Positions 7,552 through 57,209 of a stretch of DNA of 64,000 bases are shown here, one piece after another (the first letter of the stretch is position 1; every line of letters begins with the position of its first letter). The DNA comes from a phage. Where the stretch lies: the NCBI GenBank assembly GCA_025812035.1, contig GCA_025812035.1_4719.1; one strand, written 5' to 3'. The notes beneath the pieces were generated by a model that was not told where the DNA came from, searched no databases, and saw only the letters and a list, made by a program, of their open reading frames with translations. Both the position numbers and the translations under genes were made by a program.

Positions 7552-7614
7552 TTTAATCTCCTCTCCTGGCTTCAGAGAATTCTCAAAATCCGTTAGTTTT
7601 GATAGACGGGATAA

Positions 7615-7647
7615 GACGGCATAAAAGCCTCCCGTATTGGGAGGCTC
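7615..7647 (-). terminator. GC hairpin followed by TTTATGCCG
   Basis: stem AGCCTCCC/GGGAGGCT, then TTTATGCCGTC on the minus strand. Confidence 0.5.
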
Positions 7648-7658
7648 CATTAATCGGC

Positions 7659-17372: not shown

Positions 17373-17420
17373 CGTACGTACCTCTTTGAATCGGTAAATA
17401 TATTAATAAATATTGTTTAC

Positions 17421-17445
17421 TCACGTAAGTAATATAGCCGTGAAA
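17421..17445 (-). promoter_or_regulatory. conserved promoter-like motif (minus-strand sense TTTCACGGCTATATTACTTACGTGA)
   Basis: one of four near-identical copies, 49 nt upstream of the HD hydrolase gene. Confidence 0.45.
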
Positions 17446-17494
17446 GGATTTGCATTGGTCCGTTTCGATGACCATCGTATTTTATGGATTGTCG

Positions 17495-19748: not shown

Positions 19749-21227
19749 ATGATTAAAAATAGGGCAGAACACATGAAACTCAAACAAAGCTGGAAAAACG
19801 AACTCCTTGCATTAGTAAACAGCAAAAACAGTTTACAACTGACATTAGACGACGTAAAATTTGAACTAACCGAACCGGTAAGCGAAGTGCCTGGAACGGT
19901 CGTTGTTACGATCAAACCGAACGATAATAGTCGCTACTTTAACGAGCAGTCTCTGACCTACGTCCGTCGAGACATTGCTAAAAACTTCACCGGGATTCCG
20001 TTACGGGTTATCGTTAAAAAAGATACCGCCGTAAGGGATATCATCAGTACGATTGCTAAACGTTACGGACTGGTATTTGATACCACTGTCGACTTCCTCG
20101 AATCAGAACTGAATAAGCAAATTACTTTCGCAGACACCGGTATTAAAGACGTTACGGTTCCGGTTGCCAATACGTCTTATGTTTGGGCCGGTAATCTTCA
20201 GTTCAATATCGCTAACGATACGTTAAGCTTGATTACTATCATCAAGAAAACCGATCTTACGAATCTGGTTTATCTGGATGGTGTTGAAGCTGACACATCG
20301 GGGTCGTTACTGTTAGCAACCGCAGCACTTGTTAACGAACACGTAAATGAACCGATGGTTGAAAACGAAGATATCGTTAATGAATTCATTAACGTTCTTA
20401 ATGCTCTAGCCAAATATGGTGACATAACCGGCGATGAATTAGATGCCGCCTTACAAGCGTACGATGAAGCAGAAAACAGGAATAAAACCACGGTAATAAC
20501 TCTTGGTGATATCGAGTGCGTTGCAACCGAAAAAGACGATTGGGAAATTGGACATTTACGCGGTCGGATGGTTCTCGCGCTCAAATCCGATAAACAACCG
20601 GAGCTCGATAACACGTTCAGGTTGTTTACGAATGGTGGTGATGTATCGCTAACGTTAAACACAATGAAAGATATAAGTATCGATTGGGGTGATGGGAATA
20701 AAGTAACGTTGGATGCCGAAGAAAGATACGCGCACCACACATATGCCGACAATAACCAATACCAAATCGAAATTGTGTCTCGTACGGACCCAGATGTGCT
20801 GCGACCAAATTATATTTCTGGGAGTGAGATAACCGAAGTAATTCACTGGGCTACTACTTCAACAATAGCTCTGAATTTTGTTGGATGCGATAATTTAGCG
20901 ACTGTTCCAGATGAGATCCCAACTTCGTGGACAACGTTGGACAGCATGTTTGAAAGTTGTACGAATTTGAATGATCCGTCTATCTCTAACTGGAATACAA
21001 GTAACATCACATCAATGAATGGTATGTTCGGCGGATGCACTAAATTTAACCAACCTTTAGCTGCCTGGGATGTCAGCTCGGTAACTGACATTGGTGGTAT
21101 GTTTGTCGGGTGTAGCAGTTTTAACCAAGATTTAAGTGGATGGCGATTACCGTCTGGAGTAAACCACCGCGATTACGATAGTGGTGCTTTCTCGTGGCAG
21201 ACGGAACATAAACCGACGTTCAAGTAA
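19749..21227 (+). CDS. protein with C-terminal DUF285/BspA-type repeats (possible start at ATG 19773)
   Basis: tandem repeats of MF..C..(L/F)N...S.W(N/D)(T/V)S.(I/V)T.M..MF over the last 100 residues. Confidence 0.6.
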   Translation: MIKNRAEHMKLKQSWKNELLALVNSKNSLQLTLDDVKFELTEPVSEVPGTVVVTIKPNDNSRYFNEQSLTYVRRDIAKNFTGIPLRVIVKKDTAVRDIISTIAKRYGLVFDTTVDFLESELNKQITFADTGIKDVTVPVANTSYVWAGNLQFNIANDTLSLITIIKKTDLTNLVYLDGVEADTSGSLLLATAALVNEHVNEPMVENEDIVNEFINVLNALAKYGDITGDELDAALQAYDEAENRNKTTVITLGDIECVATEKDDWEIGHLRGRMVLALKSDKQPELDNTFRLFTNGGDVSLTLNTMKDISIDWGDGNKVTLDAEERYAHHTYADNNQYQIEIVSRTDPDVLRPNYISGSEITEVIHWATTSTIALNFVGCDNLATVPDEIPTSWTTLDSMFESCTNLNDPSISNWNTSNITSMNGMFGGCTKFNQPLAAWDVSSVTDIGGMFVGCSSFNQDLSGWRLPSGVNHRDYDSGAFSWQTEHKPTFK

Positions 21228-22594: not shown

Positions 22595-24856
22595 TCACAA
22601 TTCGAAATCTTCATCGATAACGCGCTGTGTGAGCACCTTGTCACTGAAGAACTCTACTTTGCGCTGATGGTATTTACGGTGCGCTTCGATAGAGGTACAC
22701 ACCAGATACCAGAACGTTGGCGTCATTCCTTCAAACTTCCCTTTCAGCTGACGCAGTCGCCCCAACACCTGAATGTTACCGGTTCGTGATCCCATCGCTA
22801 ACGTCATGAACGCCATCACCAAATCAGGGAGGTCGATACCTGTCCCCGCCGATTTCACGGTTGTAACGCTGATATCGTTATCCAACAAGACCATGAAATC
22901 TTCTTCAGCGGTATAAGGACCGATCTCTAACTCGGGAATACGTTCACTGAGATAGTGCGACAATGACTTACACATATCAACGGTTGCACAATACACCAGC
23001 ATCTTCATACCTTCCTGATACTGGTTCATGAAACCTTTGATGATAACCGTATAGATAAAGTTGAAATACGCGAGTTTGAGTTGCTTATTCTTCATGATAG
23101 ACTGTTCGAATATCGTGTGTGAATAAGAACCCCCAAAGCCTTTGTATCTGATTTTATCTGTACTACGTAGTCGATACGTCACGGCATTTACCGCAATGTA
23201 TTTCTTGTATTCGCCTTTTGCGAAACGCGCTTCTTTCGGATACATCAAATACAACATCCGCTCGATGAACGGATCATCGGATACCGCTGTTGCCGACAGA
23301 TAAATGATTTCCGGAATATTGGCGTAACACTTGACTTTAAACAAGAAATGCAAGGCTTCGTGACATTCGTCGTGAATCAGTAGACCTATACCCGTCTTTT
23401 CCCAAAACTCAGCGGGATGGAAGGCGTATGGCGCAACGCAGTTATTCTTCTCGTAGTCCGCAATATAACGTTGGAACATGTTCAAGGAGAATAACGCGAT
23501 TTTGAAATCCAGCTCGCCTTGTTCCACCAACGTCTGGAATTCCAGCATGCTGTAACGAGGAATGTCGGGATGCGGTGGATCCTCCTTAGCGTTCCCGCGT
23601 ATCTCAATAACGTCCCCTGGTTCCATTCCGAAGAAGTTCAGCAATGAGCTTCGCCAACCTGGCATATACCGTGGAGAGAGTATGATGCCTGTGCGTACAC
23701 CACGTCGAAACACGATTTCCTGTGACATCGCGGTGTTGTGTGTGACGATGTGGTCTTTAATGACATAAAGGCTTTCGTCATTATCCACCGTGATGCAACG
23801 TGCTTTCGCTTTAACTGTCGGTACGATGCTATCAATCGCTAAACCAGGAAGCCTGTTAACAGGGAGATCGTCTGGAATCTCAACGTCGTCAGGAATAAGC
23901 TTAAGTAAATCGGAATGATAAATTAATGTCTCCATCGTGTAACTATCGATGGGGCATTTATACGCAATTCCTCCTAACTGATACGCCAACTCCCAAACCT
24001 TGGTTGTTATCTGTGAATCAACGGTTCTGACCGCAAGGTGAGCCTGTCCGTTTTCGATTCGCAACTCACAACGACCTTTGACCACCACCTTAAATTCTTC
24101 GAGACCTACGAGTTCTTTCGGTTCGTAAAGTCGGATTCTTATCGGACGGGGTCTGGCAGGTTTATCGTAAAGACATTCCATGATTTCGTCTGTGCTGAGA
24201 ACCTTATCGGGGTCAGTACAACGCCAGAGATGATCGCCACAAGCTTCAACCATTCTACCGTCCTCAAAGAAGATAGCATAAAGCTGAATATTGTCATGAT
24301 CGAAGATCGCTGTAACGTTGGTCGGTAGCCCATTCGCACCAATAACCCGATCCCCTACTTGAAGCTCACCAATCGGCTTCCAACCACCTGGAACCTTTAC
24401 AGGCGTATGAAGCGCTAGCGCTTTGCCACTGCCTGTTTGAGCGGTGTTTAGGCTCATTCTGAAGGGGGTATCCTTACCCCCGTTCATGTACTCCAGCCAT
24501 TCTTGCTGATCTTCTCGCCACGGAAACTTCCATTTCTTTACGAACTCCACTTCCTTACCGGGTACCGGATCATGGTAAACGATCTCCAGCCACTCTTTTC
24601 GGATTCCTCGGGAAAAGATAAAATCCAAAAACGATTTCAACTGTTCGCGGAGTAAGTATACCTCGCTATAATCGCTTCTCGCTGCGGCATACGTGTTTAT
24701 GGTATCGGTAACCATTCTCCGTGTACGAGGGTCACGTCGTTTCCTCAGATGCAAACAACGGTCTCGAAGGTAATGGCCGATAAGATGGGCAAATCGAAGT
24801 CCGTATCCGCTCAGCTTCATGCCATGCGAGAAGACGTCGATACGAGCTAACTTCAT
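22595..24856 (-). CDS. SF2 (DExH-box) helicase precursor containing an in-frame intein in the P-loop
   Basis: Walker A AQTGSGK interrupted, DExH box LLIHDECHEA, motif III LSATA, motif VI QVLGRLRQ; start codon overlaps stop of the beta' C gene. Confidence 0.7.
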   Translation of the reverse strand: MKLARIDVFSHGMKLSGYGLRFAHLIGHYLRDRCLHLRKRRDPRTRRMVTDTINTYAAARSDYSEVYLLREQLKSFLDFIFSRGIRKEWLEIVYHDPVPGKEVEFVKKWKFPWREDQQEWLEYMNGGKDTPFRMSLNTAQTGSGKALALHTPVKVPGGWKPIGELQVGDRVIGANGLPTNVTAIFDHDNIQLYAIFFEDGRMVEACGDHLWRCTDPDKVLSTDEIMECLYDKPARPRPIRIRLYEPKELVGLEEFKVVVKGRCELRIENGQAHLAVRTVDSQITTKVWELAYQLGGIAYKCPIDSYTMETLIYHSDLLKLIPDDVEIPDDLPVNRLPGLAIDSIVPTVKAKARCITVDNDESLYVIKDHIVTHNTAMSQEIVFRRGVRTGIILSPRYMPGWRSSLLNFFGMEPGDVIEIRGNAKEDPPHPDIPRYSMLEFQTLVEQGELDFKIALFSLNMFQRYIADYEKNNCVAPYAFHPAEFWEKTGIGLLIHDECHEALHFLFKVKCYANIPEIIYLSATAVSDDPFIERMLYLMYPKEARFAKGEYKKYIAVNAVTYRLRSTDKIRYKGFGGSYSHTIFEQSIMKNKQLKLAYFNFIYTVIIKGFMNQYQEGMKMLVYCATVDMCKSLSHYLSERIPELEIGPYTAEEDFMVLLDNDISVTTVKSAGTGIDLPDLVMAFMTLAMGSRTGNIQVLGRLRQLKGKFEGMTPTFWYLVCTSIEAHRKYHQRKVEFFSDKVLTQRVIDEDFEL
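23735..24421 (-). other. intein (229 aa, residues A146..N374 of the helicase precursor)
   Basis: inserted between GSGK and T of Walker A; ends ..VTHN followed by Thr; Ala at position 1, DHLW and RCITV segments resemble the class 3 Trp/Cys/Thr arrangement. Confidence 0.55.
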
Positions 24857-36063: not shown

Positions 36064-36112
36064 AACAACCTCTTTTCGCGGTTCCCTGTTAAAACGTCTT
36101 CAGTGACGTCTA

Positions 36113-36136
36113 CCACAAAGGTAATATAAGCGTGAA
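36113..36136 (-). promoter_or_regulatory. conserved promoter-like motif copy
   Basis: GCTTATATTACCTTTGTGG on minus strand, 54 nt upstream of gene 34477..36063. Confidence 0.4.
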
Positions 36137-36267
36137 TAATTTTGGATTCCTGCTGAGTTATCGCTCAGCATGCAAGGCATCCCGCCGAAGCGAGACACCT
36201 TGCATTAACGGAAAATATTCGCGTTACCTTCTGAATTAATGATTCAGAATGCGATGCTAAAGCGTTA

Positions 36268-40840: not shown

Positions 40841-41305
40841 TTAAACCAAAGCCGCGATAACGTCATTAACGTTACGGCCTCGTAACTCTGCCGCCAAACG
40901 AATAATTTCATCCAGGGAACGGTTTGTACGAATCTTAGCTACTTTCCAATTTTCAGGATACTGTTCGAAGTTAAGTAACCAAGTCATTACCTTTGCTTGT
41001 TCCACACCGTTAAGTTTGATGGTTGTACGCGGATTGGCTTTGAACCACTTCTTGCTCAGCTGTGCCATACGGCGAACAGGATAAGCGTAAGCGCGGGTCC
41101 AGTCTTTGGACAGATTGTCGAGTAATTCACGGTAGCTGCTGTCGTAGTCTTTGTTGATACGACGTAATAACCAGTTGGCGGTCATTTGATAAAGTTTATC
41201 ATCTTCACGTAAACGCATACCTGCTACCGCTAAATAAATGATAAGACCTGCACCCATGATGAGAGACAGGATAAACAGAACTTGGTTTTCTTGTGCTAAA
41301 GTCAT
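40841..41305 (-). CDS. membrane-anchored protein (N-terminal transmembrane helix)
   Basis: N-terminus VLFILSLIMGAGLIIYLAVAG; conserved promoter-like motif upstream. Confidence 0.5.
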   Translation of the reverse strand: MTLAQENQVLFILSLIMGAGLIIYLAVAGMRLREDDKLYQMTANWLLRRINKDYDSSYRELLDNLSKDWTRAYAYPVRRMAQLSKKWFKANPRTTIKLNGVEQAKVMTWLLNFEQYPENWKVAKIRTNRSLDEIIRLAAELRGRNVNDVIAALV

Positions 41306-41390
41306 TTTACTATCCTCGGATTTCGTTAGGATTTGATTTCCAATATAAGGACGATGTGATATGCCTTATACAGTCGATTGATGTTGTACA

Positions 41391-41415
41391 TCACCTAGGT
41401 AATATAGCCGTGAAA
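41391..41415 (-). promoter_or_regulatory. conserved promoter-like motif copy
   Basis: TTTCACGGCTATATTACCTAGGTGA on minus strand, 86 nt upstream of gene 40841..41305. Confidence 0.45.
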
Positions 41416-41424
41416 AATGTTGGA

Positions 41425-42222
41425 TTAACGTGTTCTCCTATCACGGTGGGTATATGACTGAAGACCAATGTCCATATGCGGTAACGTCAATGTCTGCCAG
41501 ATCTGGCGTGCGTAACGATCGAGCGTATGATCGTTGGTAACACAATCAACGGGTTCAATGAGGTGAGTTGTATACTGGCTTTTCTCAGAGAAAGGTTCGA
41601 TGTTGGCCGTATCCCCTAATCCGCTTTTCACCGTGAAGACGAGACGTGTGATTATCATCGCCTTATGTTGCTGTTCGTTATAGCGAAGGCTACGATATAC
41701 CGCATAGCTTCCTCCTTTTAAGCTTCGGGTATAACGAAGATCGGAGGTTGTCTCGGAAATCTGATACAACATCCAATCCAACGTATCTCGCCAGTACGCA
41801 TCATCCACATCAGGAACCGTGATACCGTACCGCGTAGGCAGCAAATCTAAAAGCAGTTTATACAGTCCGCGACGTAAGCCATGCTCTTCTGTTTCCGATA
41901 AACCGTTTCCAACGTAACGTGAGATACGTGTACGTAAATACATACGGATGAACATGTTTGCCATCAGCGATTTCGCGCTACTACTGGTGTCCTCGAAACG
42001 ATCGACGCTGAAACTCGTTTCAATCAACCGTCCATTAAAATACAACGCGGCAACGTACATCGCATTACTGCTATCTCGTTCGATGTTTAAACGACCGCAG
42101 ATGTTGGCTGCATCATTCATGGTAAATTCTAATTTATCATGTTCGATACGGTAAATAATATCTTCTTGGGTTGCCAGGCTCGCGATGCGGCGGTAGCCCG
42201 GAGAAGTGCGTTTTACACTCAT
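41425..42222 (-). CDS. hypothetical protein (265 aa)
   Basis: complete ORF. Confidence 0.5.
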   Translation of the reverse strand: MSVKRTSPGYRRIASLATQEDIIYRIEHDKLEFTMNDAANICGRLNIERDSSNAMYVAALYFNGRLIETSFSVDRFEDTSSSAKSLMANMFIRMYLRTRISRYVGNGLSETEEHGLRRGLYKLLLDLLPTRYGITVPDVDDAYWRDTLDWMLYQISETTSDLRYTRSLKGGSYAVYRSLRYNEQQHKAMIITRLVFTVKSGLGDTANIEPFSEKSQYTTHLIEPVDCVTNDHTLDRYARQIWQTLTLPHMDIGLQSYTHRDRRTR

Positions 42223-42958: not shown

Positions 42959-43183
42959 TTAGCAATGGTTGTTAGTTGCTTCTATTTCGTCAAGATAAGG
43001 TTCTACGTCATCGCCCTCCACGAATTCGTTGAACCAGCAGTCAATGGTAGAAATAACCGGTGACTGGTGTTCACATTTCTTAGATACCTTAAAAGGTACG
43101 TTATTATCCATCATACCGAGTTCGGGTCGAAAACGCCCGAAATGTTTCGCAGTCCAAATGTCTGGGACGATATGGTTGTTCAT
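42959..43183 (-). CDS. RNA polymerase beta' N-terminal fragment, exon 3 (begins MNNHIVP..)
   Basis: MNNHIVP..ELGMMDNNV parallels beta' MAVHVP..ALMMSTNNI directly after the catalytic DGD; preceded by G at 43184. Confidence 0.6.
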   Translation of the reverse strand: MNNHIVPDIWTAKHFGRFRPELGMMDNNVPFKVSKKCEHQSPVISTIDCWFNEFVEGDDVEPYLDEIEATNNHC

Positions 43184-43574
43184 CGTGGTGTTCAGCATGA
43201 GTCGCTACCTCATACCCGCAGCTTTACCTGCAGCTTCCGGTGTTACCGGAATGTCCAGAATACATCTTATCCATATTCCAAATGGAACGTAGGACTTCCG
43301 CGCTGGATCTCGCTTGAGACCACGTATTCGTTGAACCTGCGTTGTTTCACATTCTTGCAAACAAGAATGCCGTATTGCTACGCAACAACCAGGCTGCTGA
43401 TCGAACATTGTCATGTACGGTAGGCATCCCCGAAGGGACTGTCATTGAAGCCGCGTACATCCGCTACCTTGTTTCTACCTTATCGGTTCCTCTTACGAGG
43501 CGTAGCGGCCTTAGCCCTTCCCAGCAATTCACGGAATCCAAGCTCTTCCTTTCGGAAGGCAGGGCCTATGATTA
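43184..43574 (-). ncRNA. candidate ORF-less self-splicing intron 2 (group I-like)
   Basis: P-like GAAUUGCUGGGAAGGG (43515..43530) and Q-like GAUCAGCAGCC (43392..43402); starts after U, ends with G; several local hairpins; P1 and P7 not resolved by eye. Confidence 0.45.
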
Positions 43575-43587
43575 AGCGTCACCGTCG
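43575..43587 (-). CDS. RNA polymerase beta' micro-exon (13 nt, c-GAC-GGU-GAC-GCU, encodes DGDA)
   Basis: only placement that rebuilds NADF-DGD-A-MNNHIVP in frame with U at both 5' splice sites and G at both intron 3' ends. Confidence 0.5.
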
Positions 43588-45028
43588 CTTACGTGCACCG
43601 ACGTTTATTAACTCATGGTTATCCACTGAAATACGGCGTTAGGGAAATAATCCTTCTTGCCGCGTTTTGAGATTTGCAATGCCATATTACTCGGAGACAA
43701 TCTGTAATGCCATGCTGCTTCATCGATAGAACTAAACTTCTTTGTTTCGCCGTTATCAAAGATGATTTTCAACGCTAGTTTAGGTAAATCGTCTTCCGTT
43801 TCTACTAGTTCGAAAGAATCGATATTCTCTGCCAGCGTTAACGGATCAACAGGTAATATCAGCCAACCAGCACGCTGCAATCCTCCACGTAGACTAATTT
43901 GTTTATTCAACGCAGGGGTAGCCATGCCAACTAACTTAGCAGCCAGCTTGCGGTCTTTAATATAAAGACGATAATCTCCGGTATTATTAATAGCATACAC
44001 ACCAAAGTTATTGAACGATACCTTTCCAGCATCGGAACTAGTAAAGCCTACAAAGTCGTGGCTGTCGGTAGCCACGTCGTATTTAAATGCTAATGGCTTG
44101 TTTCGACTGCCGCTAAGATACTTCTTGGCTGTAGATACCGATATGTTGAGATATCGTCCAATAGCATTCAAACTTTCTAGTTCGATGATTTCTCCTGTCA
44201 ATATGTCCTTTAACCGAACATTACCCATCGGTATTGGTGGTTTACCGACATAACCCAATTCACGATATGCGTGTTTCAAGTTATCTGAATCAGTAGCCCA
44301 TTCCAAATTTTCTAGTCTGTTATCCCAACGCACTCCATTAAGATGATTAGGGACACGACGGATTATACCTGACGTCGGATCTGGGTTAAATGTTTCAAGG
44401 ACGATCTGATGATGGTATTTCACTTTGTTGTTCCTAGTGAAAGCGCGATAGTTGTTTTTGCCCGACTTGGGTGGTTCAGTACGAAACAACACTGTCAGAC
44501 TAGACACATCTACTATCGTACCGTTCTTATTAACAACGATACCATCAAAACCATTAACAGGACGATAATCAGACAAACAATCTTCAGAAATTGCCTGTCC
44601 AACTAAAGGTTCACTCAATTTGACCTCCTTTATAAAAGAAGTCGGTGCACGTAATTATCGACTATATCTTCATCCTCGTTGCGAGGAGTCTCCCGTTTTG
44701 GTCTGTGTTTAACAGAGCCTACTCTACTCGACATCGCGTCTTTCGATAGTCTGTGAGCACACATCTTAACGAACATTCGTGGATTCCTAAGCAGGTGAAC
44801 GTTCTTGTTGAGATGCTTCGCTGCGGATTATTCCCGTCCTACCTCTTTTACCATACCCAGTTCATTACGCTGGCCCTCATCTGTGTCACCACGATGAGTT
44901 GGTGTGTAGTCCGATTACAGAAACTTCCCGTCAATTAGAGAGTTTTAACTACGTTCCTGTTACCAGAAACCCGACTCCGACGATATCAATTAAATCAACG
45001 TAAATTATTGATTTAATTGAAGAAACTG
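43588..45028 (-). mobile_element. group I intron 1 with embedded HNH homing endonuclease gene
   Basis: IGS GAGUCGG (44971..44977) pairs with exon end CCGACUU with terminal U-G; P AAUUGACGGGAAG (44924..44936), Q AAUCCGCAGC (44820..44829), R ACAGACUAUCG (44744..44754), S AAGAUAUAGUCG (44659..44670); 12-bp stem 44641..44652 with 43591..43602 loops out the ORF; ends with G at 43588. Confidence 0.7.
43608..44618 (-). CDS. HNH homing endonuclease (intron-encoded), UUG start
   Basis: HHQIVLETF..NHLNGVRWDNRLENLEWATDSDNLKHA HNH motif; AAGGAGGT RBS before UUG; lies entirely inside intron 1. Confidence 0.75.
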   Translation of the reverse strand: MSEPLVGQAISEDCLSDYRPVNGFDGIVVNKNGTIVDVSSLTVLFRTEPPKSGKNNYRAFTRNNKVKYHHQIVLETFNPDPTSGIIRRVPNHLNGVRWDNRLENLEWATDSDNLKHAYRELGYVGKPPIPMGNVRLKDILTGEIIELESLNAIGRYLNISVSTAKKYLSGSRNKPLAFKYDVATDSHDFVGFTSSDAGKVSFNNFGVYAINNTGDYRLYIKDRKLAAKLVGMATPALNKQISLRGGLQRAGWLILPVDPLTLAENIDSFELVETEDDLPKLALKIIFDNGETKKFSSIDEAAWHYRLSPSNMALQISKRGKKDYFPNAVFQWITMS

Positions 45029-46284
45029 AAGTCGGCATTATAACCTTTCAAGATCATCACGCTTAACCCGATGGTGTTATCCTGCGGATCGCGTTTAACC
45101 TTGGTGATTTCAAGACATTGGTTACTGCTTCGGTCAAGTGATGGATTTCGAACAAAACCACACACAATCCCATCAAACGGTGTATCAGCAATAAGCTCAT
45201 CGTGCAGCTCGCTCATCATCGGATGATAATTACGGACATGTTCCGCAACGAACGCACGTGCTGCTCTTGGTGAATAACCACGATGGAATAACTTGGATTG
45301 GATATGTTCTTTATTGGTTAATGTAAATGGCGCGTATGGGAAATGCAGATGATAATAACGATGGTTCGCTGTTATCGAACTGATTACGGTACGCGTGGTG
45401 AATGGATGTAATGTACCTAATATGTTTTTACGTGTGATACCTTTCTTCTTACCGATGAACTCATCGAAAATCGCCGAGTGGTACTGCAGCAGCTTCAGTT
45501 GTACTTTCGCCATCCAGTTTTCTTTCTTTCTGGCGCTCAAAGGTGTTGTTGGGTGATAGATACTATTCAATGTACCGATAGCATCGATCGCACCTTCCAT
45601 TTTGCTATCTGCATAACGACCGGTTGGTGTATTCTCGATAACGAACATCATGGCGGCAGGAAAACTGATATACTGGCTGAAGAACTTATCGCGATGAATG
45701 CGGGTGAATTCTCGTAGCGTATCAACTTTCTCCGTGTTCTTCGGTCCGCGTAACGTAGGTCCTTTATACAAGATCTCCATGATGCGATCGAAGTTCTGTA
45801 TAAAGCTATTTATCCCACGTCGTATCCCGAATACATCGAATTGCTGCTCCAGATAGTTCTTGAGTTCGATGGGTCGTTTTACGTTTGGACGGTAACTGGC
45901 ATCAATGAGCCACGTCATCGTTTCAAAGCTTTTGATATTCAACTCGCTTGCCAGCACGAGATGGACCAACGGGTTAATAAACGCATCAATTCCTTCAGGA
46001 ACACGCGCCCAAACCGTCGAACGAATCTCTTGTTCTGCTGGGTAGGTTACAACCGTTTTACAGTTTGGACACACCGTGCCAAGCAGCTCACCACGATTGT
46101 AGAAACCACATCCACATTGTGGTGTGATATCCAACGTATCGCTGGAGTAAACACGGGTGATAAAACTGTTTAATTTCTTCTTCTCTTCGACGACTTTTGT
46201 GTCGTAATCATTCAACAAAATAGGCGTAAAAGGAAGTTCTGCGAGCTGTCTATCGAAACTCACGATATCGAGCATGATGGCCAT
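45029..46284 (-). CDS. RNA polymerase beta' N-terminal fragment, exon 1 (ends ..YNADF)
   Basis: zinc finger CGCGFYNRGELLGTVCPNCK and ..NPSL.R...Q.....IGL..ILKGYNADF parallel E. coli beta' up to NADF; unspliced frame stops 5 codons after NADF. Confidence 0.75.
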
Positions 46285-46320
46285 GGGGTATCTCCTACAA
46301 ATGAAAAAGAACGTTAGGAC

Positions 46321-46350
46321 GTATAAGGGAGGGAGGTTGCCCTCCCTCCC
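46321..46350 (-). terminator. 10-bp perfect GC hairpin after the 631-aa gene, followed by TTATAC
   Basis: stem GGGAGGGAGG/CCTCCCTCCC, loop TTGC. Confidence 0.6.
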
Positions 46351-46376
46351 GTCAGATTACATCGAACGTTCTTCCA

Positions 46377-48272
46377 TTAGAACAGGTTGAATGCCCCACC
46401 CATGTTGTTACCACCAACGTTCGGACGATCGCTGCGTGCGTAGATGCTACCGGAGATATTACCCAGACCACGAGCACGTGCTGCCATGTTACCACGAACA
46501 GCGGTACCCGCCAGATGCTGGATATTCTCAGGACGGATGGTGAAGCCAGCTTCAGCAGCTGCTTCAATCAACGCAGCAAGCGCTTGCGGTTCGAAGTCGT
46601 AACGCATTGCCCAACCGGTTTGTTCCCAGCTACCAGACAGAACACGATCGATGATTTCGTGACGAGCGACAACACGCTGAGACATCGACATATCGGTACG
46701 GTCGAAGCTGTCTTCCCATGCTTCTACGGTATCCGGGTTAGTGATGTTCATCATGTACAGATCGTCCATATCGCGAATATCGTGACGGTTACCATCCTGG
46801 TGGTTGTAGTGACCCAGCGGGATACGGTTACCGGTAGCGTAGACCAGCGGTTGACCGTATTGATATTTCTTGCTGAAGCAGCCCAGGGTAGTATCATCGA
46901 AGGCACGGAAGAGTGCTTTGTAACCTTCAGAGACTTCCCGAACATCAGCCTCAACATTACCCGTATAGATCTTCTCAGCCGCCGGGATCATACGCAACAG
47001 CCAGCTGTATTCGCCTTCTTCCGGCACGTCGATAGAAATCAGCAGGGACGGATACAGTACCTGTTGCAGGAACTTGTAAATCTGCTCATTGGTTTGAGTA
47101 GACAGATCCAGCGGTGCGGTAACTTCCGGATCCAGCACCATCGCCAGAGCACCCGGGTTATGCGGACCGATACCACGAGCAGCGTTGCTGATTAAAGACT
47201 GCGCCCATGCCATGCCGCTGTTCAGCGTAGCAATGGTACCAATCAGACCCAATACAAAAGTATTCGGTGTGAATGCGTCCAGCTCCAGCGGGTAAGCGCT
47301 GGTCATCACGTAACGCGGCTGGTATTGTACAGTCGGCGGTACCGGATAACCGTTAACCAGAACAGGACCTTGGTTGAAGGTCGGGTTCTGCGGGCTGTAG
47401 GTCAGGTCGATATAGCCGGTAGTTGCGACCAGACGCTGCTGGCTATCGTAATCGCTCATCGCTTGACGGATGCGGTTAGAGATAGTTACAGTGATGTCGG
47501 AACGCACTGGGTTACCAACGATATCGCTGTCCTGCATACCGCTGGTGTTATACTGAACGCTGCTGATCGGCTGATCGCTTGCCATCATGCCCAGGTTGAA
47601 CTGCGGCAGGCCCAGTTTATCACCGAGACGGATTTCGATTGCGGTTTGGATTGCGTTATCTGCAGCAGACAGCAGGGTGGTTGCCAGGTGTGCAGATTCA
47701 GCGGTGATTTCATTGGTCACCACAGCCAGACCAGCGATACGAACAGTACCATTAGCCTTGCCACCAATAGCCGCATACATTGCCGCCATGACTTCGTTGA
47801 TGAACGTGCCGTTCAGGTTATCAACCCAGGTACGCGGTACCAGAATGTTACCATGCGGACCTTGTTCTTCACGACGCGGCAGCGGAGCCAAACCGGCAAC
47901 CAGCGGAAGCACATAACCGAAGAAGTGGTTATGATCACCAACTTTCGCACCACTCATAACCACCAGGGTCGGATACGGTACACTGTACTGACCAGGATCG
48001 ACAGTCACCATGATGAAGTCGTCTTTAAAGCCTTTATCTTCCAGTTCTTTTTCCATCAGACGACGGAGGTTCAGTACTTGCTCAGAACCGGTGTTACGGC
48101 TAATACGACGACTCAGTGTACGGTTGATCGTACGCATCGTATGAGTCACTTTAGGCTGGCCAGCAAAGTCTGCAGCGGTTTCCAGCGCTTCATCTGCACG
48201 TTGTGCGGTGCGGGTTTCAGCTGCACGAATTTCTACATTATCGTTACCGTTTTTACGTACGTCTAAGCCCAT
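46377..48272 (-). CDS. abundant 631-aa protein; candidate nuclear-shell (chimallin-like) or major structural protein
   Basis: very strong codon bias; disordered N-terminus and Gly-rich C-terminal tail; conserved promoter-like motif upstream and strong GC hairpin downstream. Confidence 0.6.
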   Translation of the reverse strand: MGLDVRKNGNDNVEIRAAETRTAQRADEALETAADFAGQPKVTHTMRTINRTLSRRISRNTGSEQVLNLRRLMEKELEDKGFKDDFIMVTVDPGQYSVPYPTLVVMSGAKVGDHNHFFGYVLPLVAGLAPLPRREEQGPHGNILVPRTWVDNLNGTFINEVMAAMYAAIGGKANGTVRIAGLAVVTNEITAESAHLATTLLSAADNAIQTAIEIRLGDKLGLPQFNLGMMASDQPISSVQYNTSGMQDSDIVGNPVRSDITVTISNRIRQAMSDYDSQQRLVATTGYIDLTYSPQNPTFNQGPVLVNGYPVPPTVQYQPRYVMTSAYPLELDAFTPNTFVLGLIGTIATLNSGMAWAQSLISNAARGIGPHNPGALAMVLDPEVTAPLDLSTQTNEQIYKFLQQVLYPSLLISIDVPEEGEYSWLLRMIPAAEKIYTGNVEADVREVSEGYKALFRAFDDTTLGCFSKKYQYGQPLVYATGNRIPLGHYNHQDGNRHDIRDMDDLYMMNITNPDTVEAWEDSFDRTDMSMSQRVVARHEIIDRVLSGSWEQTGWAMRYDFEPQALAALIEAAAEAGFTIRPENIQHLAGTAVRGNMAARARGLGNISGSIYARSDRPNVGGNNMGGAFNLF

Positions 48273-48302
48273 TTGGGATTCCTCTTTTCTTAAACTTTAT
48301 TA

Positions 48303-48314
48303 AATGACGTCATT
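48303..48314. promoter_or_regulatory. perfect 12-bp palindrome AATGACGTCATT
   Basis: identical to 17495..17506. Confidence 0.35.
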
Positions 48315-48336
48315 GAATCAGCTTCTACTCGCTCAT

Positions 48337-48361
48337 TCACCTAGGTAATATAACCCTGAAA
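48337..48361 (-). promoter_or_regulatory. conserved promoter-like motif copy
   Basis: TTCAGGGTTATATTACCTAGGTGA on minus strand, 65 nt upstream of the 631-aa gene. Confidence 0.45.
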
Positions 48362-48385
48362 TTTTTTTCAATATTGGTGTAACCG

Positions 48386-48410
48386 TATTGAACGATATAA
48401 ACCCCTAGGT
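48386..48410 (+). promoter_or_regulatory. inverted copy of the promoter-like motif facing the plus-strand gene 48527..49621
   Basis: GATATAAACCCCTAGGTGAATG; CCTAGGTGAATG is a perfect inverted repeat of 48338..48349. Confidence 0.35.
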
Positions 48411-48526
48411 GAATGCTGCCGAGAAGCAACATTCTTTCTACATATAATCAGGATATGTCTGTAAACTTTTACTTCTCTTATTGAGAGTAACATCATATCC
48501 GCTTACTACCTTCTTACGGAGTTCGT

Positions 48527-49621
48527 ATGTTTCGTGTTTTAAATAACCTCCCGCGAACATCATCGGGTGTGCAACCCATCCCTCAGAAAGACTATCTGAT
48601 ACGCGAAGTTCAAAGAAACCTACAAACAATCCAGAACCACTATCAGGGTTTTACCTTCGCGGTTCAGAGTGATCACATCCTTGCGTTGCTGCTCGCACAG
48701 CTCCCTATGAGATACGACATCTCTGTACAAACTTACTACGACATGATTCTCGATCTTACACCAGAATTGGGTAATCGTGTTAAGTTGACAACATCGAGAT
48801 ACGCAGGTAAGTTATTCGACGGAGCTTTCTATCCGGGATTGCATGAAGCCATCATCGCAACCGGTGAAAGCCGTCTTATTTCACGGGATGTTCTTGACAA
48901 CTGGCGTAATTGGTCACCGGTTAGAATCGTGACGCACCCGTACGCAAATCTTCGTTACATTCCTCTTCACCGAAAACAGGTTGAAGAAGGACGAGGTTTC
49001 GCGGTCATCATGGTCGATGTACCTTTATTAGCATTACAGTATCGAATGTGGTCTTTGGTCATGGGCCATAACGTCGACGGTAAATGGGTGGTTAAAGAAC
49101 CGGTTACGAGCTTCCTTGCGAGTTTTCCATTGGTTAACGCATTATACTCACACAACGATGTTGTCATACGCAACCGTTGTTTGTGGGTACCTCCGGCTAA
49201 GAATCCACTCAAGTCGCCGATTTACGTTAACGACCTGGATAACGTATTCAGTCAAGTCGTGCTGTCCGTACAACATCATTTATTACGAAGAAGACGAAGC
49301 TACACCGACATGCTTAAACAGATACCGAGTTTATACGGGGATCAGTACCAAGCAACCCGAATGGGCTACACCGTCGATCTTCGACAAACCCGATGGGCAA
49401 GGGATCTAGGCTGTATGTCATTATGGCAGCAGCTCGTCACACTGCAAAACGTATCTGAAAGCGTCGGGTTCAGCAGTCAAATCGATAATGATCTGTACCG
49501 CGCCGCCGACCGGAGTCTGAAAGAAGGTAGCTGGGAATCCTCTCCGTTACCCGGCGATTTGCGGCGTGAAGTTATCGCACAGGTTGCCGACCTCTTAAAA
49601 ATTCTTCCTGCTGGGACATAA
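48527..49621 (+). CDS. hypothetical protein (364 aa, plus-strand island)
   Basis: long ORF; inverted copy of the promoter-like motif upstream; hairpin downstream. Confidence 0.5.
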   Translation: MFRVLNNLPRTSSGVQPIPQKDYLIREVQRNLQTIQNHYQGFTFAVQSDHILALLLAQLPMRYDISVQTYYDMILDLTPELGNRVKLTTSRYAGKLFDGAFYPGLHEAIIATGESRLISRDVLDNWRNWSPVRIVTHPYANLRYIPLHRKQVEEGRGFAVIMVDVPLLALQYRMWSLVMGHNVDGKWVVKEPVTSFLASFPLVNALYSHNDVVIRNRCLWVPPAKNPLKSPIYVNDLDNVFSQVVLSVQHHLLRRRRSYTDMLKQIPSLYGDQYQATRMGYTVDLRQTRWARDLGCMSLWQQLVTLQNVSESVGFSSQIDNDLYRAADRSLKEGSWESSPLPGDLRREVIAQVADLLKILPAGT

Positions 49622-49685: not shown

Positions 49686-51839
49686 TTACTCTGCGGCTTC
49701 TTGCTTCGGTAAATAACTTGCAGCGATATCTTGAGCTAACAATGTATTATTTTTATTCGAGATGAAAATACCGTAACTTTCCATCAACGCGTAATACGAA
49801 CGAACAAGCGTAGAGATCAGTCGACGAATATCCATACCTTGAATAAAGATATCAGGAAGCCCGGAGGCTTCGATCACCGGTAATGGTATCGTTAAATTAC
49901 TTATTGTTTTCTTATCGTTACGTACAATCCAATCGCGGAAACGTTGTTGTAACCCTTTATCCTCCCATGAATCAATCCAATCATTAAGAAGCGTTTTGTT
50001 CTTCGTCGCCAACGGCACACGAACCCCAACATAAGGAGGTTCGGAGCAATGGCCGTACGATTGAGCAAACACCTCTTCCCACATATCGTAAGACTGTTTC
50101 GTTACTGCAACATGTGGTTTCACTTTAACACGTGTTAAGAAATCGGGGTCACCTCGTTTCATTGACTCAACGATTTCGTTTTCTAACGAGATGATATCAT
50201 CAAGAACCAATCGAATACTGATCTTCTCGTTACGTAACAGCTTATCCATGATACCACACATCATCCGCTCAACACGTTGGACGATCATCTTCGGCGCTGA
50301 TGCGTCGCGCATAACTGGGCCTTTCAATTCCAGCTTCGGTGGATTGATAGGAACCCCTTCACGCATGGTCATGTAACCGTAATAGTTTTTACCCATCGAG
50401 GTTAACGACAGGATCAAGAACATATATTCGTTCTTCATTTCCATCACGTACATATGCTCTTTCGCCACACCGATATTACCAGAGCACATCGCCATCAGAT
50501 GAACCGTGATCTGTGTAACCAGATAGATAAGCGTGTTGGCTAAGCGCGTCGAAACTGGATTGATCTCCATATTCCCAAATCGCCACTGAACCCACTCCTG
50601 ACAGGTAAATACCGTTGAGTCGGTATCGGACAACACCCCCACTTCACGGATCGCTGATGGGAAAGCATAAACACCCGCCGGTTGGTTCTCGGTACGCCAG
50701 AACGCCATAATCAAGTCAGCGTAACCTTGAATACGTTGCAACATTAATTTTGTCGTTGCTGCGGTAAGACGATAACCAAGTTCATTTCCTTTTTCTAGCG
50801 CGACGTAAATCGCTTCTCCATTCAAGAACTCCGTGCATTGTGCTGTAATCCATGCGACGGTGTTGTTATCCATGGAAGCAATAATGGCTTTAGCTTCTTC
50901 CATCGTTTCAACAGGTTCGGATGCCAGTTCACATAACGAGTCAAGAAAATGACGAACGAATTCAGGATTAAGCTCACGTAACGAGTACAGGTTATTGCTG
51001 TACATATAGCAAGCGCGTTCCAACGGGGTTAAACCAGTGATTAGCTCCCGGATGACCAATTCTTTCTCTGGGTCGAAAGTGTACCGATGCAAGCATTTCG
51101 ATACGTTAGCCCAAACCTCTTCCGGCGTAGGGTAATGCAGTTTGTATTTTACCATCACCTGCTCAATGGCGTTACGATCGCTATTGCGAACAATGCTTAC
51201 GATGTTTTCAATTGCGATATCACAATCGTAATAATGGAAATTGCCTGCCAGGAAGCGTTCATTGTTCGCATTGGCCGAACCTGAAGCGCAGCGACATGTT
51301 GTTGTTAAACTCGGATGCGCAATCGGATTATAAAACGGATTAAACTTGGACGCCTGTGTTCCCGACAAACTGTTGTTATCTAACTTGGTGTTGGTTTGTC
51401 GTTTATCGTGTAGTTCAGCTTCGTCTTTACGTCCGTGTGCTTGTGCTATCGACATTTGTTTCTTTTGTTTCTTACGCAACTTACCGTTTTCAACCGCAAA
51501 GTCGCTTAGCACGCTGGAACGTGTCTCGCGTGGATAACAGTTAGCCCATACCGGCGTGATAATTAAATTATTTTCTTTAATATCGTTGAAATATTGACTG
51601 AACTTGATGACTTCTTTTTCTCGATTTCCTTCGGTACGCTGTGTTAAAACAAGACAGTCGGGATCAACCATCCCGTATTTTCCGCCAGGACGTACCGTAT
51701 CAAGAACAAACTGCAGCGCTTCCTGCTGCGATATCCCACGCATGCGCATTAAGAACAGGGTATAATCCTGCACCGCTTCTTTGGTCATATCCAACGTACG
51801 ACCGTATCCGTTTTCATCGTAAAAGAACGGATTTTCCAT
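49686..51839 (-). CDS. large hypothetical protein (717 aa) with LSDTDS motif; possible nucleotidyltransferase
   Basis: long ORF; GVLSDTDSTVF resembles polymerase motif C, other motifs not confirmed. Confidence 0.55.
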   Translation of the reverse strand: MENPFFYDENGYGRTLDMTKEAVQDYTLFLMRMRGISQQEALQFVLDTVRPGGKYGMVDPDCLVLTQRTEGNREKEVIKFSQYFNDIKENNLIITPVWANCYPRETRSSVLSDFAVENGKLRKKQKKQMSIAQAHGRKDEAELHDKRQTNTKLDNNSLSGTQASKFNPFYNPIAHPSLTTTCRCASGSANANNERFLAGNFHYYDCDIAIENIVSIVRNSDRNAIEQVMVKYKLHYPTPEEVWANVSKCLHRYTFDPEKELVIRELITGLTPLERACYMYSNNLYSLRELNPEFVRHFLDSLCELASEPVETMEEAKAIIASMDNNTVAWITAQCTEFLNGEAIYVALEKGNELGYRLTAATTKLMLQRIQGYADLIMAFWRTENQPAGVYAFPSAIREVGVLSDTDSTVFTCQEWVQWRFGNMEINPVSTRLANTLIYLVTQITVHLMAMCSGNIGVAKEHMYVMEMKNEYMFLILSLTSMGKNYYGYMTMREGVPINPPKLELKGPVMRDASAPKMIVQRVERMMCGIMDKLLRNEKISIRLVLDDIISLENEIVESMKRGDPDFLTRVKVKPHVAVTKQSYDMWEEVFAQSYGHCSEPPYVGVRVPLATKNKTLLNDWIDSWEDKGLQQRFRDWIVRNDKKTISNLTIPLPVIEASGLPDIFIQGMDIRRLISTLVRSYYALMESYGIFISNKNNTLLAQDIAASYLPKQEAAE

Positions 51840-56228: not shown

Positions 56229-57209
56229 TTAGAATAGCAAGAAACCGCTGTTCTTCGCTTCCGCTACAGTTTCGTCACCAACTTTCGGTGCCTGTTGACG
56301 CGCGTTACGATGTTCAATGTAACGTTTCGCTTCGTCAGCGATTTGTTTGATAATACCCCCTAAACGATCGGTACTTAAAACAAACGACGTCGCTTCACGG
56401 ATTGGGCTGCTGTCAGGCACAAAACCGTCACAACTGTAAATAGCGTTAACACCCATGACTTTTGTCGCGTCTTTCGGATAAAGCGTACAGAAAGCAATGG
56501 GGCTATCGTTCTCTTTTGTCCAATCGTATCCCATGAACGTATTCAGTTCGGTGATCGTTGGTTCCAAACCGGTAACACGTGGATGGTTCAAGAAGTTTTC
56601 CAGGTCAGCGCTGTCAAGACGACGGTTCTCACCAGAAAACAGAACACAAAGCTGGCTAATAACAACCTGCACGTCCAGGTTGACATCCTGCTCCGATTTC
56701 CCATTTTCGCCATTCATGTGATAGCTGACGATCACCGGACGTTTCAACCCTTCTGCGGCTGCCATCAGTCCTTTAAAGGTGCGGTCTGCGTTGATCGTCT
56801 GACGCTCATCATCGAACGAGGCAACGATGCAACATACCACACGTTCACCGCGTTCCAGCAGGTTAGCAACCAACGCAGGACCTGCAACAGAACCCGAACC
56901 ACCGCTTAAACTAAAGACCACGATATTAAATTTACCTGGCGTATGTTTGTTGAGAATACCTGGGATTTGTGAACAGATCAGTTCAGCGTTCTCGTCACGC
57001 TTCTTACCCGAACCGTCTAACTCGCGGCCTGCTGCATCTTTAAAGATGTAAATATGATCATCGTCCAGTGTGCTATCGCGTAGGTTAGCACGGCTGGTAT
57101 CGACATACGTCATGCTGTGTAATCCTTTCGCGACTTCGCCTTCAAACGCTGAGCCGATTTCGCCACCACAACCGCCGACAGCCCAAATATGTACTTGGTT
57201 CTCTTGCAT
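56229..57209 (-). CDS. phuZ: PhuZ-like phage tubulin (tubulin/FtsZ GTPase fold)
   Basis: N-terminal AVGGCGGEIGSA nucleotide-binding segment and SLSGGSGSVAGP tubulin signature (GGGTGSG-like); length 326 aa. Confidence 0.75.
   Translation of the reverse strand: MQENQVHIWAVGGCGGEIGSAFEGEVAKGLHSMTYVDTSRANLRDSTLDDDHIYIFKDAAGRELDGSGKKRDENAELICSQIPGILNKHTPGKFNIVVFSLSGGSGSVAGPALVANLLERGERVVCCIVASFDDERQTINADRTFKGLMAAAEGLKRPVIVSYHMNGENGKSEQDVNLDVQVVISQLCVLFSGENRRLDSADLENFLNHPRVTGLEPTITELNTFMGYDWTKENDSPIAFCTLYPKDATKVMGVNAIYSCDGFVPDSSPIREATSFVLSTDRLGGIIKQIADEAKRYIEHRNARQQAPKVGDETVAEAKNSGFLLF

What the first reader, a model, noticed from the sequence alone, without database searches (positions are those of the whole stretch)
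46377..48272. Highly expressed 631-aa protein: candidate nuclear-shell (chimallin-like) protein or major structural protein
This ORF has the strongest codon bias in the window, a disordered N-terminus and a Gly-rich flexible C-terminal tail ending in a short hydrophobic tip, and is flanked by a conserved promoter-like motif and a perfect 10-bp GC terminator. Its size is close to what I recall for phage nuclear-shell proteins and smaller than phiKZ-type major capsid proteins. That recollection is not verified, so both assignments stay open. The embedded plus-strand ORFs 46515..47195 and 47325..48266 are antisense artefacts.
Basis: inference. Interest (0 to 1): 0.6.

Follow-up and report, generated by a model that had tools for sequence, protein, structure and literature searches.

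The report
Phage nuclear-shell protein chimallin (ChmA)
This gene encodes chimallin, the already well-studied protein that Goslar-type giant phages of E. coli use to build a nucleus-like shell around their DNA; it is 96% identical to the Goslar protein whose structure is solved, so it is a correct but ordinary identification.

Summary
The ORF 46377..48272 (-), 631 aa, is real and is chimallin (ChmA), the phage nuclear-shell protein. It aligns end to end with the solved Goslar chimallin (PDB 7SQT/7SQU/7SQV; E = 0, 1377 bits), with 607 of 631 residues identical. It passes Pfam PF25677 (96.9 bits against a cut-off of 27) and PHROG 4795 'nuclear shell protein'.

The window is collinear with Escherichia phage Goslar 126654..188633 at about 92% nucleotide identity. 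The Goslar major capsid protein is a different gene (gp41) outside this region, and the ORF matches no capsid family, so the capsid alternative is rejected.

- **Codon bias:** it is the strongest in the window (Nc 35.2, E. coli-optimal codon fraction 0.74 against a median of 0.47).
- **Promoter motif:** a conserved motif (TTTCAsGsyTATATTAC...GTG) sits 72 nt upstream, has four copies in the window, and fits the phiKZ-type promoter consensus.
- **Hairpin:** a perfect 10-bp GC hairpin follows the stop codon, nested in a larger stem that ends in a T-run.
- **Antisense ORFs:** both plus-strand ORFs are artefacts (synonymous:nonsynonymous 5:37 and 3:48, against 88:24 in the sense frame).

The identical protein occurs on roughly 238-240 kb contigs in many public metagenome assemblies. 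Novelty: already known. Side observations: a class-3-like intein in a helicase P-loop, and a variable group I intron/HNH site in an RNA polymerase gene.

The parts
46377..48272 (-). chmA: chimallin / phage nuclear-shell protein, 631 aa
   Evidence: ORF. (PDB 7sqt, E = 0, residues 1-631). (PF25677, 96.9 bits). (PHROG 4795). (607/631 residues identical to Goslar YP_009820873; 98 of 124 nt differences at codon position 3).
48333..48377 (-). Promoter-like motif. Core TTTCAGGGTTATATTACCTAGGTGA at 48361..48337; TATATTAC at 48352..48345, 72 nt upstream of the ATG. Inferred early (virion RNA polymerase) promoter.
   Evidence: four copies in the window, all on the minus strand, all kept at orthologous sites in Goslar; predicted promoter consensus for phiKZ (TATATTAC) and 201phi2-1 (...TTTRARR_BTATATTACDWHDGTG); the 115 nt upstream of the ATG are 100% identical to Goslar.
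48280..48286 (-). Shine-Dalgarno-like AAGAGGA; GAGG ends 8 nt before the ATG
   Evidence: Read directly from the sequence.
46305..46375 (-). Compound stem-loop after the stop codon. The inner perfect 10-bp GC stem with GCAA loop is at 46350..46327. The outer stem runs into TTTTTCATTT (T-run 46308..46304). Inferred terminator and/or 3' mRNA stabiliser.
   Evidence: sequence. (-40.3 kcal/mol, z = -6.8, 0 of 200 shuffles fold as well). (the whole 92-nt intergenic spacer is 100% identical to Goslar). The simple terminator scan did not call it.
46515..47195 (+). Antisense ORF, 226 aa: artefact, not a gene
   Evidence: synonymous:nonsynonymous 5:37 against Goslar, and two in-frame stops in the Goslar counterpart.
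47325..48266 (+). Antisense ORF, 313 aa: artefact, not a gene
   Evidence: synonymous:nonsynonymous 3:48 against Goslar, compared with 88:24 in the sense frame.

Best explanation
The ORF is chmA, the gene for chimallin, in a Goslar-like Chimalliviridae jumbo phage of Enterobacteriaceae.

How it works, by direct orthology to Goslar chimallin:
- The gene is transcribed early from the injected genome. This step is inferred: a phiKZ-type promoter motif lies 72 nt upstream of the ATG.
- It is translated at very high rate by host ribosomes. It has a strong Shine-Dalgarno sequence and the most host-adapted codon usage in the window.
- The protein self-assembles into a flexible square lattice of tetramers that closes into the phage nucleus.
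- Within each tetramer, the N-terminal segment of one protomer docks on its neighbour.
- The glycine-rich C-terminal tail carries two short docking segments (CTS1 and CTS2, the latter the hydrophobic tip ...GGAFNLF) that reach across to neighbouring tetramers. The flexible linkers between these segments give the shell its plasticity.
- The shell encloses the replicating phage DNA and excludes host nucleases and ribosomes.

What is shown here: identity, orthology, purifying selection, codon bias, conserved flanking motifs and genomic context. What is taken from the literature on the 96%-identical ortholog: lattice assembly, essentiality and early expression. What is inferred: the roles of the promoter motif and the hairpin.
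For: - **Solved-structure match:** one search gives phmmer E = 0 and 1377 bits over residues 1-631 against PDB 7sqt/7squ/7sqv 'Chimallin'. Weaker but significant matches go to PhiPA3 PhuN (2.2e-20) and the 201phi2-1/PhiKZ-type chimallins (about 8e-12).
- **Family models:** PF25677 Chimallin_Phikzvirus scores 96.9 bits against a cut-off of 27. PHROG 4795 'nuclear shell protein' scores 2.1e-54.
- **Orthologous position:** the megablast hit is 94.3% identical to Goslar at the gene annotated 'nuclear shell protein', with the same neighbours: RNA polymerase subunit, gp245, divergent DNA polymerase and PhuZ.
- **Collinearity:** the window is collinear with Goslar over 61.2 kb at about 92% identity.
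- **Purifying selection against Goslar:** 607 of 631 residues are identical, codon changes are 88 synonymous to 24 nonsynonymous, and 98 of 124 nt changes fall at codon position 3.
- **Purifying selection among close relatives:** six metagenomic copies differ by 7-16 nt, all synonymous.
- **Docking segments:** residues 1-75 carry one substitution and residues 575-631 carry two, so they are essentially unchanged.
- **Expression signals:** codon bias, and the promoter motif with its literature consensus.
- **Literature on the ortholog:** Goslar chimallin structure, NTS/CTS1/CTS2 and lattice (PMC9365700). ChmA knockdown blocks nucleus formation and Goslar replication (PMC10541120). Chimallin is early-expressed and the major capsid protein is gp41 (bioRxiv 10.64898/2026.04.21.720040). 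Of 60 Goslar-like phages, 59 encode a chimallin with more than 90% similarity to Goslar's (bioRxiv 10.1101/2024.12.31.630880).
Against: Nothing found contradicts the assignment. Four caveats apply:
- No experiment exists on this exact variant, which has 24 substitutions.
- The promoter motif's activity and its timing class are not demonstrated for Goslar-like phages in anything I read.
- The hairpin lacks a T-run directly after the inner stem and was not called by the terminator scan.
- Chimallin peptides were detected in Goslar virion preparations. The authors attribute this to co-purified nucleus fragments.
Confidence: 0.98

Rival explanations
1. It is a major capsid or other virion structural protein (HK97 fold).
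For: Only generic features fit: high codon bias and a size of 631 aa. Chimallin peptides were seen in mass spectrometry of Goslar virion preparations.
Against: No capsid family matches in Pfam or PHROGs; only chimallin families do. The protein is 96% identical to a solved non-capsid structure. The Goslar major capsid protein is gp41, a different gene outside the collinear region. The authors explain the mass-spectrometry signal as co-purified nucleus fragments.
Confidence: 0.01
2. It is a chimallin ortholog whose three variable patches (residues 76-94, 436-474, 561-574) are functionally diverged. On this reading the shell of this lineage differs in partner or host-factor recognition, for example escape from a host factor or altered docking of import, export or capsid-docking proteins.
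For: In one search, 17 of the 24 substitutions against Goslar fall in these three patches, and several are non-conservative (Y76E, T80K, R81G, L474Q, L563Q, Q566A). In one search the same patches vary among four Goslar-like lineages, with mosaic sharing. The window matches L010 at 76-90 and L011 at 561-574, while residues 95-435 are almost invariant.
Against: Synonymous changes are also raised in the same segments (9-10 synonymous changes per 40 codons, against 1-6 in most other segments). This fits recombination or relaxed constraint on surface loops rather than positive selection. Only four lineages were compared. I did not map the patches onto the structure.
Confidence: 0.1

Closest known systems
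Chimallin (ChmA) of Escherichia phage vB_EcoM_Goslar: gp189 in GenBank MK327938 numbering, HOV27_gp246 / YP_009820873.1 in RefSeq; PDB 7SQT, 7SQU, 7SQV
   Same: Same length (631 aa) with no indels and 96.2% amino-acid identity. Same genomic position and neighbours. The 115 nt upstream and the 92-nt downstream spacer, including the promoter motif and hairpin, are identical.
   Different: There are 24 amino-acid substitutions, clustered at residues 76-94, 439-474 and 561-574. Gene nucleotide identity is 93.5%. The host genome is about 92% identical to Goslar over the window, below the usual 95% species line if that holds genome-wide.
Chimallins of Pseudomonas phages 201phi2-1 (gp105, PDB 7SQQ-7SQS), PhiKZ (8IGG) and PhiPA3 PhuN (8FNE, 8FV5)
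   Same: Same family and fold, with the same NTS/CTS1/CTS2 lattice logic. The matches cover residues about 62-600. PMC9365700 reports an r.m.s.d. of 1.8 A between Goslar and 201phi2-1 protomers.
   Different: Goslar and 201phi2-1 share only about 19% sequence identity. CTS2 is shorter in the Goslar type and makes a distinct set of contacts.
phiKZ-type promoter consensus of Chimalliviridae (TATATTAC core)
   Same: The motif upstream of chmA contains TATATTAC, preceded by an A/T-rich run and TTTCA, and followed by ...GTG. This matches the predicted promoters listed for 201phi2-1, OBP and N1M2.
   Different: The Goslar-type motif has its own flanks (TTTCAsGsy ... CyTnnGTGA). Its use by the virion RNA polymerase is inferred, not shown here.

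Membership tests
Chimallin / ChmA (Pfam PF25677; PHROG 4795) | Sequence match to the curated family profile above its gathering threshold | tested here: met
   PF25677: 96.9 bits against a cut-off of 27, covering residues 20-596. PHROG 4795: E = 2.1e-54, covering residues 19-629.
Chimallin / ChmA (Pfam PF25677; PHROG 4795) | Full-length homology to an experimentally characterised shell protein with a solved structure | tested here: met
   PDB 7sqt_A: E = 0, 1377 bits, residues 1-631. 607 of 631 residues identical, with no gaps.
Chimallin / ChmA (Pfam PF25677; PHROG 4795) | Extended N-terminal segment (NTS) and two C-terminal segments (CTS1, CTS2) joined by flexible linkers, which mediate lattice assembly | tested here: met
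   Tested by sequence only. Residues 1-75 differ from Goslar at one position (N7K) and residues 575-631 at two (N609S, V621G). The segments were resolved in the Goslar structure. The tail is Gly-rich, with 9 Gly in the last 45 residues. Exact Goslar segment boundaries were not retrieved; the numbering I have is for 201phi2-1.
Chimallin / ChmA (Pfam PF25677; PHROG 4795) | Encoded in a Chimalliviridae genome alongside core genes: PhuZ tubulin, split multisubunit RNA polymerases and a divergent family-B DNA polymerase | tested here: met
   - PF20286 divDNApol, 676.7 bits, at 49686..51839.
- Tubulin-like ORF at 56229..57209, orthologous to Goslar PhuZ. It scores 30.5 bits, just under the Pfam cut-off of 33.
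- PHROG 2987 RNA polymerase subunit at 45013..46284.
- Further RNA polymerase beta subunits, by collinearity with Goslar.

Chimallin / ChmA (Pfam PF25677; PHROG 4795) | Self-assembles into a square lattice and encloses phage DNA in infected cells; essential for replication | not testable with these tools
   Shown for the Goslar ortholog (PMC9365700; PMC10541120), not for this allele.
Chimallin / ChmA (Pfam PF25677; PHROG 4795) | Early, abundant expression | tested here: inconclusive
   Indirect evidence only: extreme codon adaptation and a phiKZ-type promoter motif. The literature calls chimallin early-expressed. No transcript data were available for this window.
HK97-fold major capsid protein of phiKZ-like phages | Sequence match to a capsid family, or orthology to the Goslar major capsid protein | tested here: not met
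   No capsid family was hit in Pfam (E up to 0.1) or PHROGs. The ortholog is Goslar gp246 (chimallin), whereas the major capsid protein is gp41.

The most novel reading that the evidence does not exclude
The three small hypervariable, mosaic patches of this chimallin allele (residues 76-94, 436-474, 561-574) mark shell surfaces under diversifying selection or frequent recombination among co-circulating Goslar-like phages. Candidates include contact sites for host anti-shell factors or for lineage-specific import, export or capsid-docking partners. The rest of the protein is frozen.
Probability: 0.1. Interest if true: 0.35.

Novelty: already known. Interest (0 to 1): 0.08.

Why it matters
It matters little for discovery. 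Chimallin is the defining, structurally solved protein of nucleus-forming jumbo phages. Goslar-like phages carrying chimallins more than 90% similar to Goslar's have already been catalogued from bacterial assemblies.

The result is useful in two ways:
- **Regulatory elements:** the perfectly conserved promoter motif and the compound 3' hairpin around the most highly expressed gene are practical starting points for defining Goslarvirus transcription signals.

Tried and rejected
- **Capsid reading:** rejected. No capsid profile matched, and the Goslar major capsid protein is gp41.
- **Simple terminator scan:** it found no terminator in 45900..48800. Folding showed the GC hairpin sits inside a larger stem followed by a T-run, so the simple scan was too strict.
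- **Sigma-70 scan:** no enrichment, 2 sites against 3.4 expected. There is no sign of a host-type promoter.
- **TATATTAC octamer alone:** only weakly enriched (5 matches against 2.5 expected; 8 of 100 shuffles reach 5). The extended 25-nt motif is what is significant. The position-weight-matrix scores are circular for the four seed sites and are used only to show there are no further strong copies.
- **Rfam at gathering threshold over the whole window:** no match.
- **E. coli complete genomes and PLSDB plasmids:** no match to the chmA region.
- **GTDB species-representative genomes:** no relative found.
- **Searches not run:** structure prediction and the large protein-database searches. A solved structure at 96% identity makes them redundant.
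- **Biopython Sharp-Li CAI table:** not installed, so I used a hand-listed E. coli optimal-codon set instead.

Full report
**Observation**

The minus-strand ORF 46377..48272 (ATG to TAA, 631 aa) is present exactly as described. It is compositionally exceptional within the window:
- GC is 52.5%, against about 45% for the window.
- The effective number of codons is 35.2, the lowest of 66 non-overlapping ORFs of at least 100 aa. The next lowest among ORFs of at least 250 aa is 44.2.
- The fraction of E. coli translationally optimal codons is 0.736, against a median of 0.472 and a runner-up of 0.615. The optimal-codon list is from my own knowledge.

The N-terminus is enriched in charged and polar residues. 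The last 45 residues hold 9 glycines and end in GGAFNLF. A Shine-Dalgarno-like AAGAGGA ends 8 nt before the ATG.

**Identity**

- A sequence search of the Protein Data Bank returns Goslar chimallin (7SQT/7SQU/7SQV) at E = 0 and 1377 bits over residues 1-631. Weaker hits go to the PhiPA3, PhiKZ and 201phi2-1 chimallins.
- Pfam PF25677 (Chimallin_Phikzvirus) scores 96.9 bits against a curated cut-off of 27.
- PHROG 4795 'nuclear shell protein' scores E = 2.1e-54.
- Megablast against phage genomes finds only Escherichia phage vB_EcoM_Goslar, at 94.3% identity. The match falls on the gene annotated 'nuclear shell protein' (HOV27_gp246, YP_009820873.1), which is gp189 in the numbering of the structural paper.
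- A direct comparison shows no indels. There are 124 nucleotide differences, 98 of them at codon position 3, and 24 amino-acid differences, giving 96.2% identity.

**Context**

The whole window is collinear with Goslar 126654..188633. About 61.2 kb aligns at roughly 92% identity. The neighbours are the same as in Goslar:
- an RNA polymerase subunit gene immediately downstream (PHROG 2987);
- the divergently transcribed gp245 homolog;
- the divergent family-B DNA polymerase (PF20286, 676.7 bits);
- the PhuZ tubulin homolog at 56229..57209;
- further RNA polymerase beta subunits.

This is the Chimalliviridae core gene set. The exact 631-aa protein is on record in 84 blocks of public assemblies, mostly on long contigs up to about 240 kb. 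The six copies I read differ from the window by 7-16 nucleotides in the gene, all synonymous. Their flanks are about 99% identical to the window. A published survey already lists 59 Goslar-like genomes in bacterial assemblies, nearly all with a chimallin more than 90% similar to Goslar's. The chmA region has no match in the RefSeq complete E. coli genomes, PLSDB plasmids or GTDB representative genomes.

**Rival reading**

The capsid alternative fails. No capsid family matches the protein. The Goslar major capsid protein is gp41, present at 1,615 copies in a T=27 capsid, and it is encoded outside the region collinear with this window. Chimallin was detected by mass spectrometry in Goslar virion preparations. 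The authors attribute this to co-purified nucleus fragments.

**Antisense ORFs**

Both plus-strand ORFs exist, but their substitution pattern against Goslar is the reverse of a coding pattern.

| Frame | Synonymous:nonsynonymous codon changes | Note |
|---|---|---|
| Sense, 46377..48272 (-) | 88:24 | |
| Antisense, 46515..47195 (+) | 5:37 | two in-frame stops in the Goslar counterpart |
| Antisense, 47325..48266 (+) | 3:48 | |

They are by-products of the strongly biased sense-strand codon usage.

**Flanking signals**

The 254-nt upstream spacer is 97% identical to Goslar, and the 115 nt next to the ATG are 100% identical. That is more conserved than the coding sequence itself, at 93.5%.

The spacer contains TTTCAGGGTTATATTACCTAGGTGA (48361..48337), 72 nt upstream of the ATG.
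- Allowing three mismatches, the window holds one further copy (41415..41391), where shuffles give none.
- Two looser copies bring the total to four (17445.., 36137.., 41415.., 48361..).
- All four are on the minus strand, each lies about 56-93 nt upstream of a minus-strand gene start, and all are retained at orthologous sites in Goslar.
- The motif matches the predicted promoter consensus tabulated for phiKZ (TATATTAC) and 201phi2-1 (...TTTRARR_BTATATTACDWHDGTG).

That these are the early promoters, read by the injected virion RNA polymerase, is my recollection of the phiKZ literature and remains an inference here. It agrees with chimallin being described as early-expressed.

Downstream, the 92-nt spacer is 100% identical to Goslar. 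The perfect 10-bp GC stem with a GCAA loop (46350..46327) has no T-run directly after it, and the simple scan misses it. It sits inside a longer stem (46375..46305) that ends in TTTTTCATTT. The whole element folds at -40.3 kcal/mol, with z = -6.8 against shuffles. A terminator and/or 3'-end stabiliser is the likely role. This is not shown.

**Mechanism**

This section rests on orthology, with the experimental steps taken from the literature.
- Chimallin protomers form C4 tetramers through the N-terminal segment.
- The tetramers are linked into a flexible square lattice by CTS1 and CTS2, which are joined by disordered linkers.
- Goslar chimallin has the same architecture, with a shorter CTS2.
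- ChmA knockdown arrests Goslar at the early vesicle stage and abolishes replication.

In the window's allele, residues 1-75 and 575-631 differ from Goslar at only three positions. The assembly elements are therefore intact.

**Variation**

Seventeen of the 24 substitutions fall in three patches, at residues 76-94, 439-474 and 561-574. Among four Goslar-like lineages (the window, two IMG/VR contigs and Goslar) the same patches vary and are shared in a mosaic way. Residues 95-435 are almost invariant. Synonymous differences are also raised in those segments. This points to recombination or relaxed surface loops rather than demonstrated positive selection. It is the only mildly open question left.

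**Verdict**

The finding is already known, so interest is low.

**Noticed in passing**

1. The helicase gene 22595..24856 (-) carries a 229-aa in-frame insertion exactly between GSGK and T of its Walker A motif. Goslar lacks it.
   - It begins ALALHTP, contains HLW and RCITVDN, and ends VTHN followed by Thr.
   - It matches DnaB-intein structures 6RIX, 6RIY and 6BS8 at E = 3e-12 to 1.1e-11. It also passes TIGR01443 (intein C-terminal splicing region), at 18.4 bits against a cut-off of 15.6.
   - I recognise the Ala1 plus Trp-Cys-Thr pattern, from my own knowledge, as that of class 3 inteins.
2. The RNA polymerase subunit gene next to chmA is split.
   - Exon 1 ends near 45019-45035.
   - A group I intron core lies at 44642..45019 (RF00028, 47.8 bits, just under the gathering score of 50, E = 1.3e-10).
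   - An HNH/NUMOD1 endonuclease ORF follows at 43608..44618.
   - The remainder of the subunit (profile positions 424-475) lies in the 79-aa ORF 42959..43198.
   - Relatives that are 99% identical in the flanks carry different contents at this site. Some have the same arrangement, some have two tandem group I intron matches and no HNH, and some lack the 1.47-kb element.
3. Two ORFs are absent from Goslar: 3701..4099 and 6667..7650.

Noticed in passing
window 23735..24421 (-), inside the helicase ORF 22595..24856: A 229-aa in-frame insertion lies between GSGK and T of the Walker A motif of the SF2 helicase (Goslar gp164 homolog). Goslar lacks it. It starts ALALHTP, has HLW and RCITVDN, and ends VTHN|T. 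It matches DnaB-intein structures 6RIX/6RIY/6BS8 (E = 3e-12 to 1.1e-11) and TIGR01443 intein_Cterm, above its cut-off. This looks like a class-3-type (Ala1, Trp-Cys-Thr) intein in a Chimalliviridae helicase P-loop. Pfam Hint models do not reach significance.
   Followed up: yes
window 42959..46284 (-); relatives L004-L009: The RNA polymerase subunit gene (PHROG 2987) next to chmA is interrupted. Exon 1 runs to about 45019-45035. A group I intron core lies at 44642..45019 (RF00028, 47.8 bits, E = 1.3e-10). An HNH/NUMOD1 endonuclease ORF lies at 43608..44618. About 400 nt of unassigned sequence follow. Exon 2 lies within 42959..43198. The called 423-aa ORF therefore ends in intron read-through. 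Genomes 99% identical in the flanks differ at this site: same arrangement (L005, L007), two tandem group I intron hits without HNH (L004, L009), or the 1.47-kb element missing (L006, L008). Splice junctions were not determined.
   Followed up: partly
window 17417..17461, 36109..36153, 41387..41431 (all on the minus strand): Three further copies of the extended promoter-like motif (TTTCAsGsyTATATTAC...GTG) lie upstream of the homologs of Goslar gp159 (HD-domain protein), gp175 and gp182. All are conserved at orthologous Goslar positions. The gp182 homolog (40841..41305) has the second-highest optimal-codon fraction in the window, 0.615.
   Followed up: partly
window 3701..4099 (-) and 6667..7650 (-); also 20321..21194: Two ORFs have no counterpart in the collinear Goslar region. 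One is 132 aa with no PHROG match. The other is 327 aa and matches PHROG 2650, of unknown function. In addition, a stretch of about 870 bp within the homolog of the Goslar BspA-like leucine-rich-repeat protein gp161 is too diverged to align.
   Followed up: partly
window 48402..48411 and 48336..48345 (-), in the chmA upstream spacer: A 10-bp inverted repeat, TTCACCTAGG ... CCTAGGTGAA, brackets the promoter motif. Its distal arm is not conserved in Goslar (TTCGCCTAGG), so it is probably without significance. The spacer is shared with the divergently transcribed gene 48527..49621 (+), which may have its own start signals there.
   Followed up: no
chmA residues 76-94, 436-474, 561-574 (window about 47991..48047, 46851..46967, 46551..46592): Amino-acid variation among four Goslar-like chimallins is concentrated in three short patches, with mosaic sharing between lineages. 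Residues 95-435 are nearly invariant.
   Followed up: partly
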